Source: Escherichia coli (GTDB taxonomy: Bacteria; Pseudomonadota; Gammaproteobacteria; Enterobacterales; Enterobacteriaceae). Taken from it: 64,000 bases of DNA. The position numbers were made by a program, and so were the translations under genes. Positions 1 through 41,004 of the stretch are shown piece after piece (position 1 is the stretch's first letter; every line of letters starts with the position of its first letter). The stretch lies in the NCBI RefSeq assembly GCF_003018235.1, contig NZ_CP027437.1; one strand, 5' to 3'. The notes beneath the pieces are model-generated. The model saw only the letters and a program-made list of their open reading frames with translations. It did not search any database and had not been told where the DNA came from.

Positions 1-1
1 T

Positions 2-601
2 ATGCGTAAATTATGTGCAGTTATTTTGTCTGCAGCTGTCTGGCTGGTTGCTGCTGTTGTGCCAGCGGGTGCCGCAGAGTATCAGTCCACACTGAGTGCC
101 GGATATCTTCATGCCCGTTCCGGGATGTCCGGCAGTGATGATTCAGCCGGATTCAATGTGAAATACCGTTATGAATTAACGGACACACTGGGGATGGTGA
201 CGTCATTCAGCTATGCAGGAGACAGGAATTGCCAGCTGACCCGTTACAGCGATACCCGCTGGCATGAGGATTCCGTGCGTAACCGCTGGTTCAGCGTGAT
301 GGCGGGGCCGTCTGTGCGCGTGAATGAATGGTTCAGCGCGTATGCGATGGCGGGTGTTGCTTACAGCCGTGTGTCGACCTTCTCCGGGGATTATCTTCGC
401 GTGACTGACAACAAGGGAAAAACGCACGATGTGCTGACCGGAAGTGATGACGGTCGCCACAGCAACACGTCACCGGCGTGGGGGGCTGGCGTGCAGTTTA
501 ACCCGACCGAATCCGTGGCCATTGATATTGCTTATGAAGGCTCCGGCAGTGGTGACTGGCGCACTGACGGTTTCATTGTGGGTGTCGGTTATAAATTCTG
601 A
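2..601 (+). CDS. lom: Lom/Ail/OmpX-family outer membrane beta-barrel protein (phage lambda Lom homolog)
   Basis: 199 aa, signal peptide, near-identical over long stretches to lambda Lom as I recall it (STLSAGYLHA..., C-terminal FIVGVGYKF). Confidence 0.85.
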   Translation: MRKLCAVILSAAVWLVAAVVPAGAAEYQSTLSAGYLHARSGMSGSDDSAGFNVKYRYELTDTLGMVTSFSYAGDRNCQLTRYSDTRWHEDSVRNRWFSVMAGPSVRVNEWFSAYAMAGVAYSRVSTFSGDYLRVTDNKGKTHDVLTGSDDGRHSNTSPAWGAGVQFNPTESVAIDIAYEGSGSGDWRTDGFIVGVGYKF

Positions 602-628
602 TTAGCCAGGTGACACAGTGTTATGACA

Positions 629-655
629 GCCCGCCGGTTCAGGCGGGCTTTTTTG
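629..655 (+). terminator. Rho-independent terminator after lom
   Basis: GCCCGCC / GGCGGGC stem followed by a TTTTTT run. Confidence 0.7.
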
Positions 656-665
656 TGGGGGGAAT

Positions 666-1859
666 ATGCCAGTACAGATTTCAGGTGTGCTGAAGGATGG
701 TACAGGAAAACCGGTACCGGAGTGCACCATAGAGCTGAAAGCCGTGAGAACCAGTGAGACGGTGGTGGTCACCACGGTGGCGGAGTGTCAGCCGGGGGAA
801 ACAGGCAGTTACAGCATGCAGGTTGAGCCGGGGCGTTATCGTGTGACCCTGTGCGTGGAAGGTCGCCAGCCAGCATATGCCGGAGAGATTGATGTCATGG
901 CAGACGACAAACCGGGTACCCTGAATGCCTTTCTGCTCCGTGAAACGGATGCTGCGTATTACCCTGATGCACTGAAGAAACTGGAAGCGGCGGCGGATGA
1001 GGCTGTGCGCAGGGCGCGGGAAGCTGCTGAGAAAGCGGAAACTGCCGTGGGGCCACAGGGGCCAAAGGGAGATAAAGGCGAGAAGGGGGAGCAGGGGCCA
1101 AAGGGTGATAAGGGAGACACCGGTGCACAGGGGCCGAAGGGAGAAACCGGCGCTAAGGGTGACAAAGGTGATACAGGCCCCGCAGGTCCGAAAGGTGAGC
1201 GGGGCGACCCTGGCGGCCCACAGGGGCCAAAAGGGGATACGGGAGCCGCAGGTCCGGCAGGCCCACAGGGGCCGAAAGGGGATACCGGAGCCACAGGCCC
1301 GGCAGGCCCACAGGGACCAAAAGGAGATACCGGAGCCGCAGGTCCGGCAGGCCCACAGGGACCGAAAGGAGATACAGGAGCCACCGGTCCGGCAGGCCCA
1401 CAGGGACCGAAAGGAGATACGGGGGCCGCAGGCCCGGCAGGCCCACCGGGACCGAAAGGAGATACCGGAGCCACTGGTCCGGCAGGCCCACTGGGACCGA
1501 AAGGGGATACGGGAGCCACCGGTCCGGCAGGTCCGCAGGGGCCGAAAGGCGATACCGGAGCCACCGGTCCGGCAGGTCCGCAGGGTCCGGCGGGAAGTTC
1601 TGACAGCGGGTTGTTTGGCGTCGGTTCTTTTGTTCTTGCAGCGTATTACCCGACGAGTTACTCGGGGGACATGCCACCGGGCACAACTGTTGCCGGGTCA
1701 TCACTGTCTGCATGCTGCCTTTCGAATGGTACTCCCCTGATTGCGTCCGGTAATGTGGGGGAAACCCGTTTACCGGGGACGTGGCGTGCATGTGGTCCGT
1801 TAATATGGACATCTGCTGCGGGTATCAGACAGGCAGGATTATTTCAGCGCATATCATGA
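666..1859 (+). CDS. stf: Phage side tail fiber protein: lambda Stf-like N-terminal domain, central collagen-like Gly-X-Y region, short C-terminal domain
   Basis: N-terminus [17 protein letters not shown]... resembles lambda Stf; long [11 protein letters not shown] Gly-X-Y repeats; GGGGG Shine-Dalgarno before the ATG. Confidence 0.8.
1215..1583 (+). repeat. Tandem 45-bp (15-aa, [11 protein letters not shown][A/T]GPA) collagen-like repeats, 8 full units plus a partial unit, inside the tail fiber gene; the wider Gly-X-Y region spans about 1053..1595
   Basis: Direct reading of in-frame repeat units with synonymous and A/T variation between copies. Confidence 0.85.
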
Positions 1860-1869
1860 GGAGGTCAGG

Positions 1870-2475
1870 GTGGATAAGGGAAAAGAGATTCTTGCAGTAC
1901 GAAATGCCGGTTACAACGAATACGGCGGTATAAACTGTGAGGTGCAGTTTGAAGGCGCGGTGAATGAAAAAGGTGAAGCGTTATGGCTGCCATATACGGC
2001 AACGGAAACGGATAATACTGAACACGGAAAAGCATTATGGTCTGGTCTGACAGCAGGAAAGTACGGAGATGTGACCGCCTTTGCTGCCACGGAAGCTGTT
2101 CTTGAGGCGGCAAAATCGGTGAAAAGGGAGGAGATTAATCTCTGGCGGGACGTGCAGGAAAATATGGAATACGTGATGGAATTCAACGGAAGAAAATGGG
2201 ATTACGGCAAGAAGACATTGTCCAGGATAAGCACGACGCGCCTGATGGCGGAAAAAAACAGTCTTCCGGAAGGATTTGCGTGGACGGATGGTGAAAATAA
2301 TGTGGTGCCGGTGACGGCGGCGGAAGTTATCGCGCTGTCGGATGCGATAGAGAAGGCGATGTTTGCGAAGGGGGTGGAGATTAACACCAGACAGTTGCAG
2401 ATGAAAGCAGAGGTTGAGGCGCTGACAGAGCTGAAGTCCATCAGAAGTTATGTTGTTGGCTGGCCTGCCAGTTGA
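1870..2475 (+). CDS. Prophage protein in the tail fiber assembly (tfa) position, function unassigned; GTG start
   Basis: 201-aa ORF immediately after stf with a GAGGAGG Shine-Dalgarno; lambda gene order; no confident similarity to lambda Tfa from memory. Confidence 0.45.
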   Translation: MDKGKEILAVRNAGYNEYGGINCEVQFEGAVNEKGEALWLPYTATETDNTEHGKALWSGLTAGKYGDVTAFAATEAVLEAAKSVKREEINLWRDVQENMEYVMEFNGRKWDYGKKTLSRISTTRLMAEKNSLPEGFAWTDGENNVVPVTAAEVIALSDAIEKAMFAKGVEINTRQLQMKAEVEALTELKSIRSYVVGWPAS

Positions 2476-3135
2476 ATAAAAAAAGCGGGGCCACCCCCGG
2501 GCCCCGACATAACGAAGTATCAGATGTTTATAATTATTAGCTTACTAACTGTGCCATATCAGAATACTGCAGGAAGTGATGTTGTTATCATTTTTGCAAG
2601 CAGGGCGTTTCTGGAGGGAATCGATTGGTGATGGAGTGTGCAATGATGAAGGGAATAAGCCTCTGCAAAACAAAAAAAGACTTTAACAAAATCAAGCTCG
2701 CTTAGTGGCGCATCTGCCCGTATCCGCACCAGTCGTCCGGAAAATGATTCAAACACCGGGCGGCAAAAGTATTACCAGTGTAGCAACCTGGAATGCGGCG
2801 TATGCTTCTCAACTCTGGCAGCTTTCCATAAATTCACATCGAAACACGCTTCCGGCGTTCACTCTTCAGAAGGTATCCCGTGGCATGAACTGCCAGCTTC
2901 ACACTGGTGAAACAATCAGATGACTTTTCCTTTACCTCAAATTAACAGGCAGAATTGCCGGAGTAACAAAAAAACGATAGATTACGCGCGGGTGCCTTTC
3001 GGCTGATGGTCGGAGGGAATACCCGAAGGCCAGATGTGGAAAGGCCCCGGAAAACACTTTTGTTTAACCGAGGCCCTAACCGTCTACCCTAAGCAAGTGA
3101 TAGGTTAGCGCCTCCCCGAAAAAGGAGCAAGCGCT

Positions 3136-3276
3136 ATGTCGCAAAAATCGCTGATCGCCATCACGCTCTGCGTGACAGCAACCCTCATCATCTGGATATT
3201 GCACGGTTCGCTGTGTGAGATACGGATGAGTTTCTGGGGAGCGGAGTTTGCGGCGTTCTTACAGTGTAAGCAGTAA
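3136..3276 (+). CDS. Hok/Gef-family type I toxin-like small membrane protein (46 aa: MSQKSLIAITLCVTATLIIWILHGSLCEIRMSFWGAEFAAFLQCKQ)
   Basis: Not in the ORF track (under 60 aa). N-terminal transmembrane helix followed by the Hok signature SLCEIR ... E.AAF, closest in my memory to HokA and Hok of plasmid R1; AAAGGAG Shine-Dalgarno 7 nt upstream. Confidence 0.6.
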   Translation: MSQKSLIAITLCVTATLIIWILHGSLCEIRMSFWGAEFAAFLQCKQ

Positions 3277-3417
3277 GGAGACCGCGACGGGGGAGTAATC
3301 CCCCGTCAATCGGTTGTCAGGGTAAGGTCGAAGTGGCACCCAAATTTAAATAGAGGCCCACCAGTAAGAGTAAGAGCGGTGGGCTTAGCACTTGTTTAAA
3401 TTTGAAAGGAATTCTTT

Positions 3418-3714
3418 ATGAGTGAAATGGTATTTTGTCGCGGCTGCGGCAAGGAAATACATAAAAATGCCATATCTTGCCCCAATTGTGGAGCACCTCA
3501 AAGAACAGCAAGTTCAAAAAGCAGGATTACAGCTGCACTACTGGCTTTCTTTTTTGGTGGTCTCGGTGCACACAAATTTTATTTAGGTAAAGTGGGACAA
3601 GGATTTCTTTATCTTATTTTTTGCTGGACATTCATTCCGGCAATCGTGGCTTTTATTGAGTTTATTATCTATCTATGCACCTCAGATGAAGATTTCGCCC
3701 GCAAATATGGCTGA
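3418..3714 (+). CDS. Small membrane protein with an N-terminal zinc ribbon (CxxC-N11-CxxC) and a TM2 domain (GGLGAHKFYLGK motif)
   Basis: 98-aa ORF with AAGGA Shine-Dalgarno; motif reading only. Confidence 0.6.
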   Translation: MSEMVFCRGCGKEIHKNAISCPNCGAPQRTASSKSRITAALLAFFFGGLGAHKFYLGKVGQGFLYLIFCWTFIPAIVAFIEFIIYLCTSDEDFARKYG

Positions 3715-3739
3715 CATCTAGCGGACGAATCAGAATGAC

Positions 3740-3770
3740 AAACCCGCAACCCGCAGCGTAAAAACTGCGG
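3740..3770 (+). terminator. Rho-independent terminator after the TM2-domain gene
   Basis: CCCGCAG / CTGCGGG stem followed by TTTTCTTTT. Confidence 0.7.
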
Positions 3771-3960
3771 GTTTTCTTTTGCTACCCATCACGAATGAGG
3801 GCACCATAAAGAAAGCCCACAGCATAGTGGTTGCGGGCTTTTTACATTCAAAGATGGACGTTTTATGGACATTGAAAGTTTAAATCCTTTAACTTTCAAC
3901 TGGTTGATGCTAATTTTAACGCACCCGAAGGCGCGTTGGCGATACACTCAATATAAAGGA

Positions 3961-4356
<396 letters not shown>

Positions 4357-4523
4357 TCAAAATGTGTGATGGAAATCTCATAATTTTGTCACTTTTTGTC
4401 AACGAATCTTTTTTGTGAGAAATCGCAGGAAGAGGTGTTTTTTTACTTGAGGAATATCTCAAAGCGAGCCATATTTGATGAGATCGATAGTGACTAAATC
4501 GCTTCAGTTTCACAACTAACAGA

Positions 4524-4556
4524 ATAAAAAAACGGCAGCTCAAGGGCTGCCGTTTT
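4524..4556 (-). terminator. Bidirectional hairpin terminator downstream of bamD
   Basis: ACGGCAGC / GCTGCCGT stem flanked by an A-run and a T-run. Confidence 0.6.
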
Positions 4557-4572
4557 GTGTTTCAGGTTTTTG

Positions 4573-5310
4573 TTATGTATTGCTGCTGTTTGCAGCGATG
4601 ATTTTCGCTACTTTTTCAGCTTGCGCATTCATCTGCATCTGACGGTATGCATTTTCCATCAGCGGCAGCGCATCACGCGTCGCCTGGGTATCCGGGTAGT
4701 CGCGCAACATGCCTTCTACGCGGTTAACGACGGCAACCCATGCACCACGTTCTGTATAGTACTCGGCAACGGAGTATTCATATTTCGCCAGACGATCTTT
4801 CAGGAATACCAGACGTTTGGTGGCATCGGTGGTGTACTGACTGTTCGGATAGCCGCGCACCAGTTTGGAAAAGTCACTAAACGCAGCTCGTGCATGTTGA
4901 GGATCGCGATCGCTACGGTCAACGCCAAAGAACCCTTGCAGCGCACTGTCATCGAGCGCCATATTGGTCAGGCCACGCATGTACATGACATAATCGATAT
5001 TCGGATGGGTCGGGTTAAGGCGAATAAAACGATCGATGGCAGCCTGTGCTAACGGCAAATCGGCGTTTTTATAGTAGGCGTAGATGAGATCCAGCTGCAC
5101 CTGCTGCGAATATGGACCAAACGGATAGCGATTATCTAACGCTTCCAGTTGCGTTATTGCCTGTCTCCAGTTACCGTCCTGCAGCTTTTGTTGTGCAGTC
5201 GCGTAAATTTCATTTGGCGGATTATCAGGTACTTCTTCCTTTGACCCCGAGCAACCCGCCAAAAACAGGCTTAGTGTGGCGGCTGCCACCAGATATTTCA
5301 TGCGCGTCAT
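4573..5310 (-). CDS. bamD: Outer membrane protein assembly factor BamD (lipoprotein, TPR-like)
   Basis: 245 aa with lipobox LAGC. Confidence 0.95.
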
Positions 5311-7153: not shown

Positions 7154-7215
7154 CCTAAAGAATCAAGACGATCCGGTACGCGTGATTTTCTTTTCACATT
7201 AATCTGGTCAATAAC

Positions 7216-7243
7216 CTTGAATAATTGAGGGATGACCTCATTT
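7216..7243 (+). promoter_or_regulatory. Sigma32 heat-shock promoter of clpB (-35 CTTGAA, -10 CCTCATTT)
   Basis: Motif match to the sigma32 consensus, about 40 nt upstream of the clpB start. Confidence 0.6.
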
Positions 7244-7282
7244 AATCTCCAGTAGCAACTTTGATCCGTTATGGGAGGAGTT

Positions 7283-9856
7283 ATGCGTCTGGATCGTCTT
7301 ACTAATAAATTCCAGCTTGCTCTTGCCGATGCCCAATCACTTGCACTCGGGCACGACAACCAATTCATCGAACCACTTCATTTAATGAGCGCCCTGCTGA
7401 ATCAGGAAGGGGGTTCGGTTAGTCCTTTATTAACATCCGCTGGCATAAATGCTGGCCAGTTGCGCACAGATATCAATCAGGCATTAAATCGTTTACCGCA
7501 GGTTGAAGGTACTGGTGGTGATGTCCAGCCATCACAGGATCTGGTGCGCGTTCTTAATCTTTGCGACAAGCTGGCGCAAAAACGTGGTGATAACTTTATC
7601 TCGTCAGAACTGTTCGTTCTGGCGGCACTTGAGTCTCGCGGCACGCTGGCCGACATCCTGAAAGCAGCAGGGGCGACCACCGCCAACATTACTCAAGCGA
7701 TTGAACAAATGCGTGGAGGTGAAAGCGTGAACGATCAAGGTGCTGAAGACCAACGTCAGGCTTTGAAAAAATATACCATCGACCTTACCGAACGAGCCGA
7801 ACAGGGCAAACTCGATCCGGTGATTGGTCGTGATGAAGAAATTCGCCGTACCATTCAGGTGCTGCAACGTCGTACTAAAAATAACCCAGTACTGATTGGT
7901 GAACCCGGCGTCGGTAAAACTGCCATCGTTGAAGGTCTGGCGCAGCGTATTATCAACGGCGAAGTGCCGGAAGGGTTGAAAGGCCGCCGCGTACTGGCGC
8001 TGGATATGGGCGCGCTGGTGGCTGGGGCGAAATATCGCGGTGAGTTTGAAGAACGTTTAAAAGGCGTGCTTAACGATCTTGCCAAACAGGAAGGCAACGT
8101 CATCCTGTTTATCGACGAATTACATACCATGGTCGGCGCGGGTAAAGCCGATGGCGCAATGGACGCCGGAAACATGCTGAAACCGGCGCTGGCGCGTGGT
8201 GAATTGCACTGCGTAGGTGCCACGACGCTTGACGAATATCGCCAGTACATCGAAAAAGATGCTGCGCTGGAACGTCGTTTCCAGAAAGTGTTTGTTGCCG
8301 AGCCTTCTGTTGAAGATACCATTGCGATTCTGCGTGGCCTGAAAGAACGTTACGAATTGCACCACCATGTGCAAATTACTGACCCGGCAATTGTTGCAGC
8401 GGCGACGTTGTCTCATCGCTACATTGCTGACCGTCAGCTGCCGGATAAAGCCATCGACCTGATCGATGAAGCAGCATCCAGCATTCGTATGCAGATCGAC
8501 TCAAAACCAGAAGAACTCGACCGACTCGATCGTCGTATCATCCAGCTTAAACTGGAACAACAGGCGTTAATGAAAGAGTCTGATGAAGCCAGTAAAAAAC
8601 GCCTGGATATGCTCAACGAAGAACTGAGCGACAAAGAACGTCAGTACTCCGAGTTAGAAGAAGAGTGGAAAGCAGAGAAAGCATCGCTTTCTGGTACACA
8701 GACCATTAAAGCGGAACTGGAACAGGCGAAAATCGCTATTGAACAGGCTCGCCGTGTGGGTGACCTGGCGCGGATGTCTGAACTGCAATACGGCAAAATC
8801 CCGGAACTGGAAAAGCAACTGGAAGCCGCAACGCAGCTCGAAGGCAAAACTATGCGTCTGTTGCGTAATAAAGTGACCGATGCCGAAATTGCTGAAGTGC
8901 TGGCGCGTTGGACGGGGATTCCGGTTTCTCGCATGATGGAAAGCGAGCGCGAAAAACTGCTGCGTATGGAGCAAGAGCTGCACCATCGCGTTATTGGTCA
9001 GAACGAAGCGGTTGATGCGGTATCTAACGCTATTCGTCGTAGCCGTGCGGGGCTGGCGGATCCAAATCGCCCGATTGGTTCATTCCTGTTCCTCGGCCCA
9101 ACGGGTGTGGGGAAAACTGAGCTTTGTAAGGCGCTGGCGAACTTTATGTTTGATAGCGACGAGGCGATGGTCCGTATCGATATGTCCGAGTTTATGGAGA
9201 AACACTCGGTGTCTCGTCTGGTTGGTGCGCCTCCGGGATATGTCGGTTATGAAGAAGGTGGCTACCTGACCGAAGCGGTGCGTCGTCGTCCGTATTCCGT
9301 CATCCTGCTGGATGAAGTGGAAAAAGCGCATCCGGATGTCTTCAACATTCTGTTGCAGGTACTGGATGATGGGCGTCTGACTGACGGGCAGGGGAGAACG
9401 GTCGACTTCCGTAATACGGTTGTCATTATGACCTCTAACCTCGGTTCCGATTTGATTCAGGAACGCTTCGGTGAACTGGATTATGCGCACATGAAAGAGC
9501 TGGTGCTCGGTGTGGTAAGCCATAACTTCCGTCCGGAATTCATTAACCGTATCGATGAAGTGGTGGTCTTCCATCCGCTGGGTGAACAGCACATTGCGTC
9601 GATTGCGCAGATTCAGTTGAAACGTCTGTACAAACGTCTGGAAGAACGTGGTTATGAAATCCACATTTCTGACGAGGCGCTGAAACTGCTGAGCGAGAAC
9701 GGTTACGATCCGGTCTATGGTGCACGTCCTCTGAAACGTGCTATCCAGCAGCAGATCGAAAACCCGCTGGCACAGCAAATACTGTCTGGTGAATTGGTTC
9801 CGGGTAAAGTTATTCGCCTGGAAGTTAATGAAGACCGGATTGTCGCCGTCCAGTAA
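7283..9856 (+). CDS. clpB: Disaggregase chaperone ClpB (AAA+); internal GTG at 7727 (codon 149) is the known start of the short ClpB isoform
   Basis: 857 aa from the ATG at 7283 (GGGAGGAG Shine-Dalgarno); the ORF track begins 4 codons earlier at 7271; two Walker A motifs. Confidence 0.95.
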
Positions 9857-10297: not shown

Positions 10298-11839
<1,542 letters not shown>

Positions 11840-11924
11840 CCTTAAAGAACTGTGCTTTGCAGTGCTCACACAGATTGTCTGATGAAAAGTGAAAAGCAAG
11901 GCGTCTTGCGAAGCAGACTGATAC

Positions 11925-12000
11925 GTCCCCTTCGTCTAGAGGCCCAGGACACCGCCCTTTCACGGCGGTAACAGGGGTTCGAATCCCCTAGGGGACGCCA
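11925..12000 (+). tRNA. gltW: tRNA-Glu (UUC) in the 16S-23S spacer
   Basis: GTCCCCTTCGTCTAGAGG ... GGGGACGCCA, 76 nt ending in CCA. Confidence 0.95.
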
Positions 12001-12193
12001 CTTGCTGGTTTGTGAGTGAAAGTCACCTGCCTTAATATCTCAAAACTCATCTTCGGGTGACGTTTGAGATATTTGCTCTTTAAAAATCTGGATCAAGCTG
12101 AAAATTGAAACACTGAACAACGAAAGTTGTTCGTGAGTCTCTCAAATTTTCGCAACACGATGATGAATCGAAAGAAACATCTTCGGGTTGTGA

Positions 12194-15097
<2,904 letters not shown>

Positions 15098-15189
15098 ACA
15101 ACGCCGAAGCTGTTTTGGCGGATGAGAGAAGATTTTCAGCCTGATACAGATTAAATCAGAACGCAGAAGCGGTCTGATGAAACAGAATT

Positions 15190-15309
15190 TGCCTGGCGGC
15201 CTTAGCGCGGTGGTCCCACCTGACCCCATGCCGAACTCAGAAGTGAAACGCCGTAGCGCCGATGGTAGTGTGGGGTCTCCCCATGCGAGAGTAGGGAACT
15301 GCCAGGCAT
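15190..15309 (+). rRNA. rrfG: 5S ribosomal RNA
   Basis: TGCCTGGCGGC ... GCCAGGCAT; 120 nt. Confidence 0.97.
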
Positions 15310-40583: not shown

Positions 40584-40605
40584 AAAAATACCGTTCTCTT
40601 TATAA

Positions 40606-40680
40606 AGTAAAACCCCCGAACTGGTAAGGAACGGGGGTTTTCACTTTACAACTTTAATTTTGTGCAGCACACGATTCCAA
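40606..40680 (-). ncRNA. ohsC: Putative OhsC antisense sRNA (antitoxin of shoB); extent approximate
   Basis: Known K-12 arrangement (divergent from shoB); minus-strand terminator at 40608..40641 and a candidate -10 CATAAT about 40689..40694; boundaries are inferred. Confidence 0.3.
40608..40641. terminator. Bidirectional hairpin terminator (acpS on +; presumed ohsC on -)
   Basis: CCCCCG / CGGGGG stem flanked by an A-run and a T-run. Confidence 0.7.
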
Positions 40681-41004
40681 CAGAAATGATTATGGATCAA
40701 TTTCGTTATCCTGTACAAGCAACTTGCAATCTCTGACATAAAAAACGCGAGCCTTTACGAAGAAATCGACATTGATAAAAAGATTAACGTGACCGCTTTT
40801 TGATAAGTACATTAAAATCGGTTTCGTTATTGGCAATTTTGCTGTGCTTTACACCATGCCACTGAATTCCCCCATTGAAACGAGTGGTGTCGTCAAAGCT
40901 CTGGTGTGGAGTGCAGCACTCGATTCCAATAACTCGCACGTTCAGTTTTGGGGAGATGTAAGGGCTAATCTGAACGGCTGCATTCCTTGTTTAAGGAAAA
41001 ACGA

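What the first reader, a model, noticed from the sequence alone, without database searches (positions are those of the whole stretch)
2991..3775. Compact two-gene small-membrane-protein cassette at the prophage/raiA junction as a candidate uncharacterised module
Two small membrane-active proteins (Hok-like toxin, Zn-ribbon/TM2 protein) sit co-directionally between the tail fiber region and the core gene raiA, a position where lambdoid phages usually carry accessory 'moron' genes (lambda b region) such as exclusion or defence functions. A stable GC hairpin (3356..3384), embedded in a 10-bp perfect inverted repeat (CAAATTTAAA at 3341..3350, TTTAAATTTG at 3394..3403), separates the two genes. Whether the two act together (for example as an abortive-infection or superinfection-exclusion pair) is purely inference.
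Basis: inference. Interest (0 to 1): 0.65.

Follow-up and report, generated by a model that had tools for sequence, protein, structure and literature searches.

The report
Hok/Sok toxin locus beside unrelated TM2 gene
The two small membrane-protein genes are real, but they are two independent accessory genes stacked at the end of a P2-derived prophage arm, a standard hok/sok toxin-antitoxin locus and a widespread TM2-domain gene of unknown function, not a two-gene system.

Summary
The sequence features are there. Hok (46 aa) is at 3136-3276 and a Zn-ribbon/TM2 protein (98 aa) at 3418-3714.

The DNA from 2699 to about 3920 is not lambdoid. It is the right end of a P2-like prophage (5'-truncated ogr, hok, TM2, attR) fused to lambdoid tail genes in a hybrid prophage.

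The hok unit (2990-3341) is a hok/sok-type type I toxin-antitoxin locus. Its mRNA closes 5' to 3' (z = -7.75), it matches the Rfam sok model and Pfam HOK_GEF, and conserved promoter boxes lie on both strands.

The TM2 gene is a separate 406-bp insertion. Phage P88 goes from the hok end straight to the same terminator. The pair occurs only in one prophage lineage:
- 93 of 5,426 complete E. coli genomes carry the pair, against 1,543 with a hok-locus match.
- Only 7 of 80 viral loci with a TM2 relative also carry hok.
- Independent TM2 lineages lack hok: other P2-like prophages, tail-module morons, and lone chromosomal genes in Yersinia and Enterobacter.

The "cassette" is therefore adjacency by descent. 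The function of TM2 remains unknown, and superinfection exclusion is only an analogy.

The parts
2699..2910 (+). 5'-truncated ogr (P2 late-gene activator). It lacks the start codon and the first Cys of the zinc finger. The left boundary is the lambdoid/P2 junction.
   Evidence: Homology to full-length ogr of P2-like prophages and phage P88 starts at 2699. RefSeq annotates 2722-2910 as an ogr/Delta-like zinc finger protein. The full ogr in L002 is 86 aa.
2955..2983 (+). Putative hok promoter: TTGCCG (2955-2960), 17-nt spacer, TAGATT (2978-2983). The transcript would start at about 2990.
   Evidence: Read from the sequence. The TTGCC and TA.ATT boxes are invariant in seven hok loci that differ by up to about 20%, while the spacer varies. 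At 8 of 12 matches it is below the threshold of the promoter scan, so this is inference.
2990..3341 (+). hok mRNA unit. It contains a tac-like 5' element (2990-3004), a ucb-like box (3039-3048) and an fbi-like 3' element (3327-3341).
   Evidence: The minimum-energy fold closes the 5' end onto the 3' end with 15 pairs, dG -155.9 kcal/mol, z = -7.75. The alternative local pairing 2991-3000/3039-3048 is seen. The Rfam sok model RF01794 matches 2990-3149 over its full length at 45.7 bits, E = 1.6e-8, below the gathering score of 59. Homology to Stx2a-phage copies spans exactly 2969-3341.
3136..3276 (+). hok coding sequence: a 46-aa Hok/Gef-family membrane toxin with an AAGGAG ribosome-binding site 7 nt upstream.
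   Evidence: Pfam HOK_GEF 2.1e-6. PHROG 251 at 6.5e-21. NCBIfam HokA 6.8e-7, below the curated cut-off. It aligns with the SLCE motif and C-terminal Cys of canonical Hoks. dN/dS is 0.11-0.37.
3037..3130 (-). Putative sok antisense gene. On the minus strand: -35 TTGCTC (3130-3125), -10 TAACCT (3107-3102), an RNA of about 60 nt running from about 3096 to 3037, ending in a hairpin (3045-3077).
   Evidence: The TTGC and TAACCT boxes keep a fixed 17-nt spacing and are invariant across seven diverged loci while the spacer varies. The predicted RNA folds into a hairpin of -23.8 kcal/mol. It is covered by the Rfam sok hit. The ends are not mapped, so this is inference.
3341..3404 (+). Composite hairpin: inverted-repeat arms 3341-3350/3395-3404 around the GC stem 3356-3362/3378-3384. 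It marks the 5' edge of the TM2 insertion.
   Evidence: It is present only in the 93 genomes that carry this TM2 allele, so it is not a dispersed repeat. It is conserved in L009 with a pair-preserving change.
3342..3747 (+). TM2 insertion module relative to phage P88. P88 has 22 nt here.
   Evidence: P88 aligns to 2699-3341 and again, at 100% identity, to 3748-3780.
3418..3714 (+). Gene for a 98-aa protein with an N-terminal CxxC...CxxC zinc ribbon and a TM2 two-helix membrane domain. The ribosome-binding site AAAGGA is at 3405-3410.
   Evidence: Pfam TM2 4.1e-19 and Zn_Ribbon_1 1.4e-4. 1,130 homologue clusters, 70-80% identical across Enterobacterales. dN/dS is about 0.08-0.10. The AlphaFold model shows a beta ribbon plus helices 33-55 and 61-97, at low confidence (pLDDT 66).
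3748..3780 (+). Intrinsic terminator at the phage right end, shared with P88, where it directly follows hok.
   Evidence: Terminator scan: 9-bp stem, 6 GC pairs, tail TTCTTTTGCT. 100% identical in P88.
3923..3939 (.). attR-like core: an imperfect copy of the raiA terminator sequence, also found next to the pheL promoter at the other prophage end.
   Evidence: GCGCCTTCGGGTGCGTT here against GCACCTTCGGGCGCGTT at the integrase/pheL end. Core-genome homology resumes at 3918.

Best explanation
The interval holds two independent single-gene accessory modules. They are stacked in the variable cargo slot between ogr and attR of a P2-type prophage arm. That arm now forms the right end of a P2/lambda hybrid prophage inserted in the raiA terminator.

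Module 1 (about 2955-3341) is a complete hok/sok-type type I toxin-antitoxin locus.
- A stable, tightly folded hok mRNA is kept untranslatable by pairing of its 5' end with its 3' end.
- A short, unstable antisense Sok RNA is made from the opposite strand of the leader and blocks any mRNA that opens.
- When transcription of the locus stops (loss of the element, host shut-off by an infecting phage, or prophage induction), Sok decays first, Hok is made, inserts in the inner membrane and kills or lyses the cell.
- Only the RNA architecture and family membership are shown here. The kinetics are inferred from R1 hok/sok and from hokW/sokW.

Module 2 (3342-3747) is a separately acquired moron. It encodes a small inner-membrane protein with a zinc ribbon (probably cytoplasmic) and a TM2 helical hairpin.
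- In this lineage it has no recognisable promoter of its own. It is probably transcribed by read-through from hok or upstream, through the long hairpin, and ends at the phage-end terminator.
- Its function is unknown. My best guess (about 0.3) is a prophage-expressed membrane protein that excludes superinfecting phages at the DNA-entry step.

The two genes are neighbours by descent in one prophage lineage. They are not partners.
For: P2 origin and hybrid structure:
- ogr-hok-TM2 follows gpD and the tail genes of intact P2-like prophages at raiA, flk and on a plasmid.
- The host genome shows P2-type int/Cox/gpA at the pheL end and lambdoid late genes in the middle.

hok/sok identity:
- Pfam and PHROG hits and the Rfam sok hit.
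- The 5'-3' closed fold, z = -7.75, and the alternative tac-ucb pairing.
- Conserved promoter boxes on both strands and purifying selection.

Independence of the two genes:
- P88 lacks the 406-bp TM2 segment but keeps the flanks.
- The slot occurs as ogr-hok-attR, ogr-hok-com-methyltransferase, ogr-hok-other genes, ogr-TM2, ogr-hok-hok-TM2 and ogr-hok-TM2-com-methyltransferase.
- 1,543 genomes match the hok+TM2 query, nearly all over the hok half only. 93 carry the pair.
- Only 7 of 80 IMG/VR TM2 loci have Hok, all with TM2 at least 94% identical. A Hok-family HMM finds nothing significant in the other 73.
- Yersinia and Enterobacter carry a lone TM2 gene with its own promoter and terminator.

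TM2 as an autonomous moron:
- Terminator-promoter-gene-terminator layout in HUE1 and others.
- It also sits between the tail chaperone and tape-measure genes. That is the position of the HK97 gp15 exclusion moron (PMC3594210).
Against: - No transcript data: the Sok ends, the hok mRNA 3' end and the TM2 promoter are all inferred.
- The Rfam sok hit is below the gathering score, and the NCBIfam Hok hits are below the curated cut-offs.
- No mok-like overlapping reading frame is present, so translational control may differ from R1.
- In this lineage TM2 lacks its own promoter and shares the terminator with hok. Co-transcription, and hence some regulatory coupling, is not excluded.
- Within E. coli chromosomes nearly every full-length copy of this TM2 allele is next to hok (93 of about 100). 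I attribute that to common descent.
- Nothing tested here bears directly on what the TM2 protein does. PADLOC has no match, and the structure model is of low confidence.
Confidence: 0.8

Rival explanations
1. The two genes form one functional unit, for example an abortive-infection or superinfection-exclusion pair in which the TM2 protein senses or gates Hok.
For: - They are adjacent, co-directional and 141 nt apart.
- They share one downstream terminator, and no promoter is detectable in front of TM2 in this lineage.
- The arrangement is conserved in 93 E. coli genomes at several integration sites and on a plasmid.
Against: - All 93 belong to one lineage, at least 92% identical including the non-coding DNA.
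- hok occurs without TM2 in P88-like phages, Stx2a phages and more than 1,400 genomes.
- TM2 occurs without hok in every independent lineage examined.
- hok/sok is self-sufficient in characterised systems (PMC8621323).
- PADLOC has no match.
Confidence: 0.05
2. The TM2 protein is a host-physiology factor, a small envelope or stress membrane protein. It was captured from, or domesticated into, enterobacterial chromosomes and merely carried along by phages. It has no role in phage-phage conflict.
For: - A 77-79% identical copy is a lone, apparently fixed chromosomal gene in Yersinia enterocolitica (listed in 1,562 collection blocks) and in Enterobacter between cpxP and fieF. Each has its own promoter and terminator and no phage genes nearby.
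- Strong purifying selection, dN/dS about 0.1.
- Parallel: HK97 gp15 derives from the host YebO family (PMC3594210).
Against: - It is recurrently carried by unrelated phage types at classic moron positions.
- cpxP-fieF is itself a P2 attachment site in E. coli W (PMC3032704), so the lone copies may be prophage remnants.
- No experimental data exist for either view.
Confidence: 0.35
3. The region is a decaying prophage remnant whose hok/sok and TM2 genes are no longer functional.
For: - ogr is truncated, and the com/mom-like methyltransferase module present in most relatives is missing.
- The neighbouring J gene is a pseudogene.
- Many chromosomal hok loci of K-12 are known to be inactivated (established knowledge).
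Against: - Both ORFs are intact.
- All RNA elements of hok are intact, and their boxes are identical to those of relatives in active phages such as P88.
- The Hok substitutions are conservative changes within the transmembrane segment.
- dN/dS is low for both genes.
- No insertion sequence is present.
Confidence: 0.12

Closest known systems
hok/sok of plasmid R1 and the chromosomal hok loci of E. coli (type I toxin-antitoxin, Hok/Gef family, Pfam PF01848, Rfam RF01794)
   Same: - A small hydrophobic toxin with the SLCE motif and a C-terminal Cys.
- An mRNA of about 350 nt whose 5' end pairs with its 3' end, with an alternative 5'-proximal pairing.
- An antisense promoter inside the leader that overlaps the hok ribosome-binding site.
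- Full-length alignment to the Rfam leader model.
   Different: - Hok is 46 aa, shorter than the 49-52 aa of characterised Hoks. It belongs to a subfamily found only in E. coli/Shigella, Salmonella and Klebsiella.
- There is no mok-like overlapping frame. Two short leader ORFs end before hok, and hok has its own strong ribosome-binding site.
- Scores are below the Rfam gathering and NCBIfam curated thresholds.
- It is carried at the ogr-attR end of P2-like phages and after lom in Stx2a phages, not on a plasmid.
hokW/sokW of Stx2 prophage Sp5 (PMC8621323)
   Same: A prophage-borne hok/sok locus. [quoted passage not shown]
   Different: HokW is a 51-aa HokC/D-like protein encoded at a different locus. 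The 46-aa type studied here is a separate Hok lineage, and in Stx2a phages it sits just after lom. No experiments exist for it.
HK97 gp15 and other single-gene membrane morons that confer superinfection exclusion (PMC3594210)
   Same: - A small inner-membrane protein encoded by an autonomous promoter-gene-terminator unit.
- In about 35 viral loci the TM2 gene occupies the same slot as gp15, between the tail chaperone and tape-measure genes.
- Host-chromosomal homologues exist.
   Different: - No sequence relationship: gp15 belongs to the YebO family, while this protein is Zn-ribbon plus TM2 (PF05154).
- Exclusion activity of the TM2 protein is untested.
P2 accessory-gene hotspots (old/tin, Z/fun; Rousset et al. 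2022, PMC9122126; bioRxiv 10.64898/2026.02.27.708500)
   Same: A short locus of high gene turnover between a conserved phage gene and a fixed boundary, with modular swapping of cargo.
   Different: - The described hotspots lie between gpA and the portal gene, int-att, int-primase, within the late genes and downstream of gpL. Term searches of these two papers (whole-word in PMC9122126; in the preprint) found no occurrence of hok or TM2, and no 'attR' in PMC9122126. 'ogr' was searched only in the preprint, also with no hit. The preprint's section on hotspot locations lists no ogr-attR slot.
- The cargo here has no match among known defence systems.

Membership tests
hok/sok type I toxin-antitoxin | Toxin of the Hok/Gef protein family (about 50-aa single-pass membrane peptide, conserved Cys in the periplasmic part) | tested here: met
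   Pfam HOK_GEF E = 2.1e-6 over residues 6-44. PHROG 251 at 6.5e-21. It aligns with R1 Hok and HokA-E, including SLCE and the C-terminal Cys (the canonical sequences were recalled from memory and used as probes). NCBIfam HokA scores 29 bits against a cut-off of 89, so it is not an equivalog.
hok/sok type I toxin-antitoxin | Long structured mRNA whose 5' end (tac) pairs with its 3' end (fbi), closing the molecule | tested here: met
   The fold of 2990-3341 has 15 terminal pairs between 2990-3004 and 3326-3341, dG -155.9 kcal/mol, z = -7.75, with 0 of 100 shuffles as stable. Both ends are invariant in seven diverged loci.
hok/sok type I toxin-antitoxin | Mutually exclusive alternative pairing of the 5' end with an upstream complementary box | tested here: met
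   2991-3000 pairs with 3039-3048. The RNAalifold consensus of seven loci chooses this local helix.
hok/sok type I toxin-antitoxin | cis-encoded antisense Sok RNA with its own promoter in the leader | tested here: inconclusive
   Rfam RF01794 matches over its full length at 45.7 bits, E = 1.6e-8, below the gathering score of 59. Minus-strand TTGC...17 nt...TAACCT boxes are invariant with a variable spacer. A hairpin lies at the predicted 3' end. There is no transcript evidence, and the promoter scan did not reach its threshold.
hok/sok type I toxin-antitoxin | mok reading frame overlapping hok and coupling its translation | tested here: not met
   Three-frame translation shows only leader ORFs 3006-3092 (28 aa) and 3034-3108 (24 aa), both ending before the hok ATG. 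The frame that overlaps hok has no ATG, GTG or TTG.
hok/sok type I toxin-antitoxin | Toxicity of Hok and neutralisation by Sok; post-segregational or shut-off-triggered killing | not testable with these tools
   Needs expression and rifampicin-chase experiments. Shown for relatives only (PMC8621323).
   The pair occurs only in one lineage (93 genomes; 7 of 80 viral loci). Each gene is found alone in several independent contexts.
   PADLOC-DB gives no family at E up to 1 for Hok, TM2 or the ogr fragment.
TM2 domain proteins (Pfam PF05154, COG2314/YozV) | Pair of transmembrane helices joined by a short linker, matching the TM2 profile | tested here: met
   Pfam TM2 4.1e-19, model positions 2-51 of 51. 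Invariant G-x-H-x-F-Y-L-G and W-T-x-I-P motifs in 28 homologues. The model shows helices 33-55 and 61-97 (low confidence).
Phage moron (autonomous promoter-gene-terminator insertion) | Present or absent as a discrete insertion between conserved flanks, with its own expression signals | tested here: inconclusive
   The discrete 406-bp indel against P88 meets the first part. Own promoter (TGTAAAAT) and terminator are seen in the HUE1, Enterobacter and Yersinia copies. In the window lineage no promoter is detectable and the terminator is the phage's own.
Superinfection-exclusion membrane proteins (function class, e.g. HK97 gp15, P22 SieA) | Blocks infection by other phages when expressed from the prophage | not testable with these tools
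   Only a positional analogy (PMC3594210). There is no sequence similarity.

The most novel reading that the evidence does not exclude
The Zn-ribbon/TM2 protein founds an uncharacterised, very widespread family of prophage-borne and domesticated inner-membrane proteins that protect the lysogen against other phages, by blocking DNA entry or by membrane-based abortive infection. In the lineage seen here its expression has become wired to the hok transcript, so a toxin-antitoxin locus and an exclusion gene are read from one promoter.
Probability: 0.15. Interest if true: 0.55.

Novelty: new member of a known kind. Interest (0 to 1): 0.2.

Why it matters
As a two-gene system it does not hold up, so it adds no new defence or toxin mechanism.

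Three smaller points remain:

1. A 46-aa Hok subfamily without a mok frame travels both at the ogr-attR end of P2-like phages and after lom in Stx2a phages. It would be a compact model for how hok translation is controlled without mok.

2. The ogr-attR interval behaves as a modular cargo slot (hok, TM2, com/mom-like methyltransferase and others in many combinations). It is not among the P2 hotspots listed in the two papers I read.

3. The Zn-ribbon/TM2 family is strongly conserved (dN/dS about 0.1). It is carried by unrelated phages at classic moron positions, is fixed in some enterobacterial chromosomes, and has no known function. A simple cloning and phage-panel test could assign one.

Tried and rejected
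- Lambdoid b-region moron: rejected. Homology from 2699 is to P2-like prophages and P88, and ogr is truncated at the junction.
- Identity with hokW/sokW, suggested by the PHROG name 'MokW-like': rejected. HokW is a 51-aa HokC/D-type protein (PMC8621323).
- Hairpin 3341-3404 as an intrinsic terminator: no U-tract on either strand, and the scan did not call it.
- Hairpin as a dispersed repeat or MITE: it occurs only with this TM2 allele.
- A sigma-70 or extended -10 promoter for TM2 in 3342-3417: none found. The candidates would start transcription inside the ribosome-binding site.
- Known defence systems: no PADLOC match.
- Solved structures with a TM2 domain: only weak zinc-ribbon matches, E at least 0.03.
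- AlphaFold model: pLDDT 66, too low for a fold search, so none was run.
- Divergent Hok hidden next to TM2 relatives: a Hok-family HMM run over all six-frame segments of 90 loci found none (best E = 0.11, 3.5 kb away).
- Ogr remnants next to the lone Yersinia and Enterobacter TM2 genes: none.
- Literature on TM2 domains in prophages or defence: nothing relevant.
- The Rfam hits mir-1788, MicC and sraA near 3657-3827 and 4472-4564 are below threshold and are just terminator hairpins.
Full report
**What is in the sequence.** The window is E. coli chromosome, 100% identical to strain CFIAFB20140388 (O158:H23). Between the tail-fibre assembly gene (1870-2475) and raiA (3961-4302, minus strand) lie three small plus-strand genes:
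- An ogr fragment (RefSeq 2722-2910).
- hok (3136-3276, 46 aa).
- A Zn-ribbon/TM2 gene (3418-3714, 98 aa).

Hok matches Pfam HOK_GEF (E = 2.1e-6) and PHROG 251 (6.5e-21). The second protein matches Pfam TM2 (4.1e-19) and a zinc ribbon (1.4e-4). It encloses the GC stem 3356-3362/3378-3384. Together they fold as one long hairpin (dG -26.2 kcal/mol for the 90-nt stretch 3336-3425, z = -3.5).

**Where the DNA comes from.** That is wrong.
- From 2699 to about 3806-3821 the window aligns at about 92% with the right end of intact P2-like prophages. There the order is tail sheath, tube, tape measure, gpD, ogr, hok, TM2, usually com plus a mom-like DNA methyltransferase, then the bacterial flank.
- The alignment starts inside ogr at about codon 5. 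The start codon and first zinc-finger cysteine are replaced by lambdoid DNA.
- The whole element in the source genome is a hybrid. It has P2-type integrase, Cox and gpA next to pheL, then lambdoid Q, lysis, head and tail genes, and finally this P2-type right arm next to raiA.
- Imperfect copies of the raiA terminator sequence flank the element.

**The hok unit.**
- *Boundaries.* Homology to Stx2a-converting phages (82%) covers exactly 2969-3341. Homology to P88-like phages ends at 3341. That defines a discrete unit.
- *RNA fold.* RNA 2990-3341 folds with its first 15 nucleotides paired to its last 16 (dG -155.9 kcal/mol, z = -7.75). This is the tac/fbi closure typical of hok mRNAs. The alternative pairing of the same 5' end with 3039-3048 also exists.
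- *Leader.* The Rfam sok/hok-leader model aligns over its full length to 2990-3149 (45.7 bits, E = 1.6e-8, gathering score 59).
- *Promoter boxes.* In seven loci differing by up to about 20%, the plus-strand boxes TTGCC/TA.ATT upstream of 2990 are invariant while their spacers vary. So are the minus-strand boxes TTGC-17 nt-TAACCT inside the leader. I read these as the hok and sok promoters. The predicted Sok RNA (about 3096 to 3037) ends in a strong hairpin.
- *Selection.* hok is under purifying selection (dN/dS 0.11-0.37).
- *Differences from R1.* There is no mok-like overlapping frame, and Hok is only 46 aa. It belongs to a subfamily seen only in E. coli/Shigella, Salmonella and Klebsiella.
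- *Not hokW.* HokW is a 51-aa protein (PMC8621323). That paper does show that a prophage hok/sok locus is a working type I toxin-antitoxin system whose toxin appears on induction and aids release.

**The TM2 unit.**
- *Insertion.* Phage P88 runs from the hok 3' end through 22 nt into a terminator that is 100% identical to window 3748-3780. The window instead has 406 bp (3342-3747) carrying the hairpin, a ribosome-binding site and the TM2 gene. TM2 is thus an insertion between hok and the phage-end terminator.
- *Distribution.* The protein family is large (1,130 clusters) and 70-80% identical across Enterobacterales, Aeromonas and Plesiomonas. The CxxC pairs and the GxHxFYLG and WTxIP motifs are invariant.
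- *Selection and structure.* dN/dS is about 0.08-0.10. An AlphaFold model is of low confidence but shows a beta ribbon plus two long helices. No solved relative exists.

**Do the two genes belong together?**

E. coli complete genomes (5,426):

| Query | Genomes |
|---|---|
| hok+TM2 query (760 bp), any match, nearly all over the hok half only | 1,543 |
| hok and TM2 side by side | 93 |
| Intergenic hairpin | the same 93 |

All 93 belong to one lineage, at least 92% identical including non-coding DNA. They sit at raiA, flk or on a plasmid.

The ogr-attR slot occurs in many combinations:
- ogr-hok-attR.
- ogr-hok-com-methyltransferase.
- ogr-hok plus other genes.
- ogr-TM2 without hok, in a divergent prophage at yegQ.
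- ogr-hok-hok-TM2.

Of 80 IMG/VR loci encoding a TM2 relative, only the 7 with at least 94% identity carry Hok.
- Eight with divergent Ogr have TM2 downstream of ogr; seven of those gaps are about 100-270 nt, too short for a hok locus, and the eighth is about 600 nt.
- About 35 have TM2 between the tail chaperone and tape-measure genes.
- Others have it among Mu-like tail genes.
- A Hok-family HMM over all six-frame segments found nothing else.

In Yersinia enterocolitica and Enterobacter the gene stands alone in the chromosome, with its own extended -10 promoter and terminator.

**How it most likely works.**
- *hok/sok.* It acts as in characterised relatives. A stable closed mRNA is slowly activated, and a short-lived antisense RNA is needed continuously to prevent Hok synthesis. 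Loss of transcription releases Hok, which depolarises the inner membrane. At a prophage end this can stabilise the element, abort infections that shut off host transcription, or help lysis on induction. These roles are inferred, not tested.
- *TM2 expression.* TM2 in this lineage has no detectable promoter. It probably depends on read-through from hok or upstream. The 24-bp hairpin could be an RNase III processing site that separates the two RNAs. This is speculation.
- *TM2 function.* It is unknown. The recurrent moron positions, including the HK97 gp15 slot (PMC3594210), suggest superinfection exclusion. The fixed chromosomal copies argue as strongly for a host envelope role.

**Comparison and novelty.**
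- Both genes are already annotated in RefSeq as 'Hok/Gef family protein' and 'TM2 domain-containing protein'.
- The hok locus is a new, uncharacterised member of a well-known kind.
- The TM2 gene is a member of a known domain family with no assigned function.
- PADLOC finds no known defence system.
- The P2 hotspot papers I read do not mention hok, TM2 or an ogr-attR slot.
- Interest is low for the cassette as proposed. The residual interest lies in the TM2 family.

Noticed in passing
window 1-3940; locus L093 (NZ_CP076709.1 2966000-3015000): The prophage between pheL and raiA is a P2/lambda hybrid. It has P2-type integrase, Cox and gpA replication endonuclease at one end, and lambdoid Q, tRNAs, lysis, head and tail genes (J is a pseudogene) in the middle. 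A P2-type truncated ogr-hok-TM2 arm forms the other end. Only 2 of 5,426 complete E. coli genomes share the junction.
   Followed up: partly
window 666-1859: The tail-fibre gene has a long collagen-like Gly-X-Y repeat region. It gives strong but sub-threshold matches to bacterial collagen-like adhesins Lcl and Scl.
   Followed up: no
window 3781-3922: The com plus mom-like DNA methyltransferase module sits between TM2 and raiA in most relatives (about 1.1 kb in L002). It is absent here. Window 3807-3917 has no counterpart in L002 and contains further hairpins (3812-3841, 3872-3899).
   Followed up: partly
L009 4298-4447 and 4697-4861: One IMG/VR P2-like contig carries two tandem hok genes (53% and 89% identical to the window Hok) between ogr and TM2.
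   Followed up: no
L099-L103 (Enterobacter) 5001-5297; L094-L098 (Yersinia enterocolitica) 5001-5297: A 77-79% identical Zn-ribbon/TM2 gene stands alone in core chromosome. In Enterobacter it lies between cpxP and fieF, a P2 attachment site in E. coli W (PMC3032704). In Yersinia it lies next to ihfA. No ogr, hok or other phage genes are nearby. It may be a domesticated prophage remnant or the ancestral host copy.
   Followed up: partly
L034 4962-5306 and about 35 similar IMG/VR loci: A 60%-identical TM2 gene lies between the tail assembly chaperone genes and the tape-measure gene. This is the slot of the HK97 gp15 superinfection-exclusion moron (PMC3594210).
   Followed up: partly
E. coli small plasmids of 2-9 kb (e.g. 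L007, NZ_CP041285.1): 58 plasmid places carry an 81%-identical but N-terminally truncated TM2 pseudogene, next to wzz(fepE) and a cupin fragment.
   Followed up: no
L005 and L090 (Stx2a-type lambdoid phages), about 2500-2875: The same 46-aa hok unit (79-82% DNA identity) sits directly after lom in Stx2a-converting phages, separately from the published hokW locus (PMC8621323).
   Followed up: partly
window 40604-40681 (-), 7164-7302 (+), 10298-15307 (+): The rest of the window is ordinary core genome. It holds the ohsC antitoxin RNA of the shoB/ohsC type I toxin-antitoxin system, the RyfD sRNA upstream of clpB, an rRNA operon with tRNA-Glu, and also rncO, GlmY and AsrC.
   Followed up: no
window 3153-3183 (-): A terminator-like hairpin (14 pairs, tail AGCGATTTTT) lies on the minus strand inside the hok coding region. 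A plus-strand promoter-like site lies at 3172-3200. Neither has an assigned role, and both may be chance.
   Followed up: no
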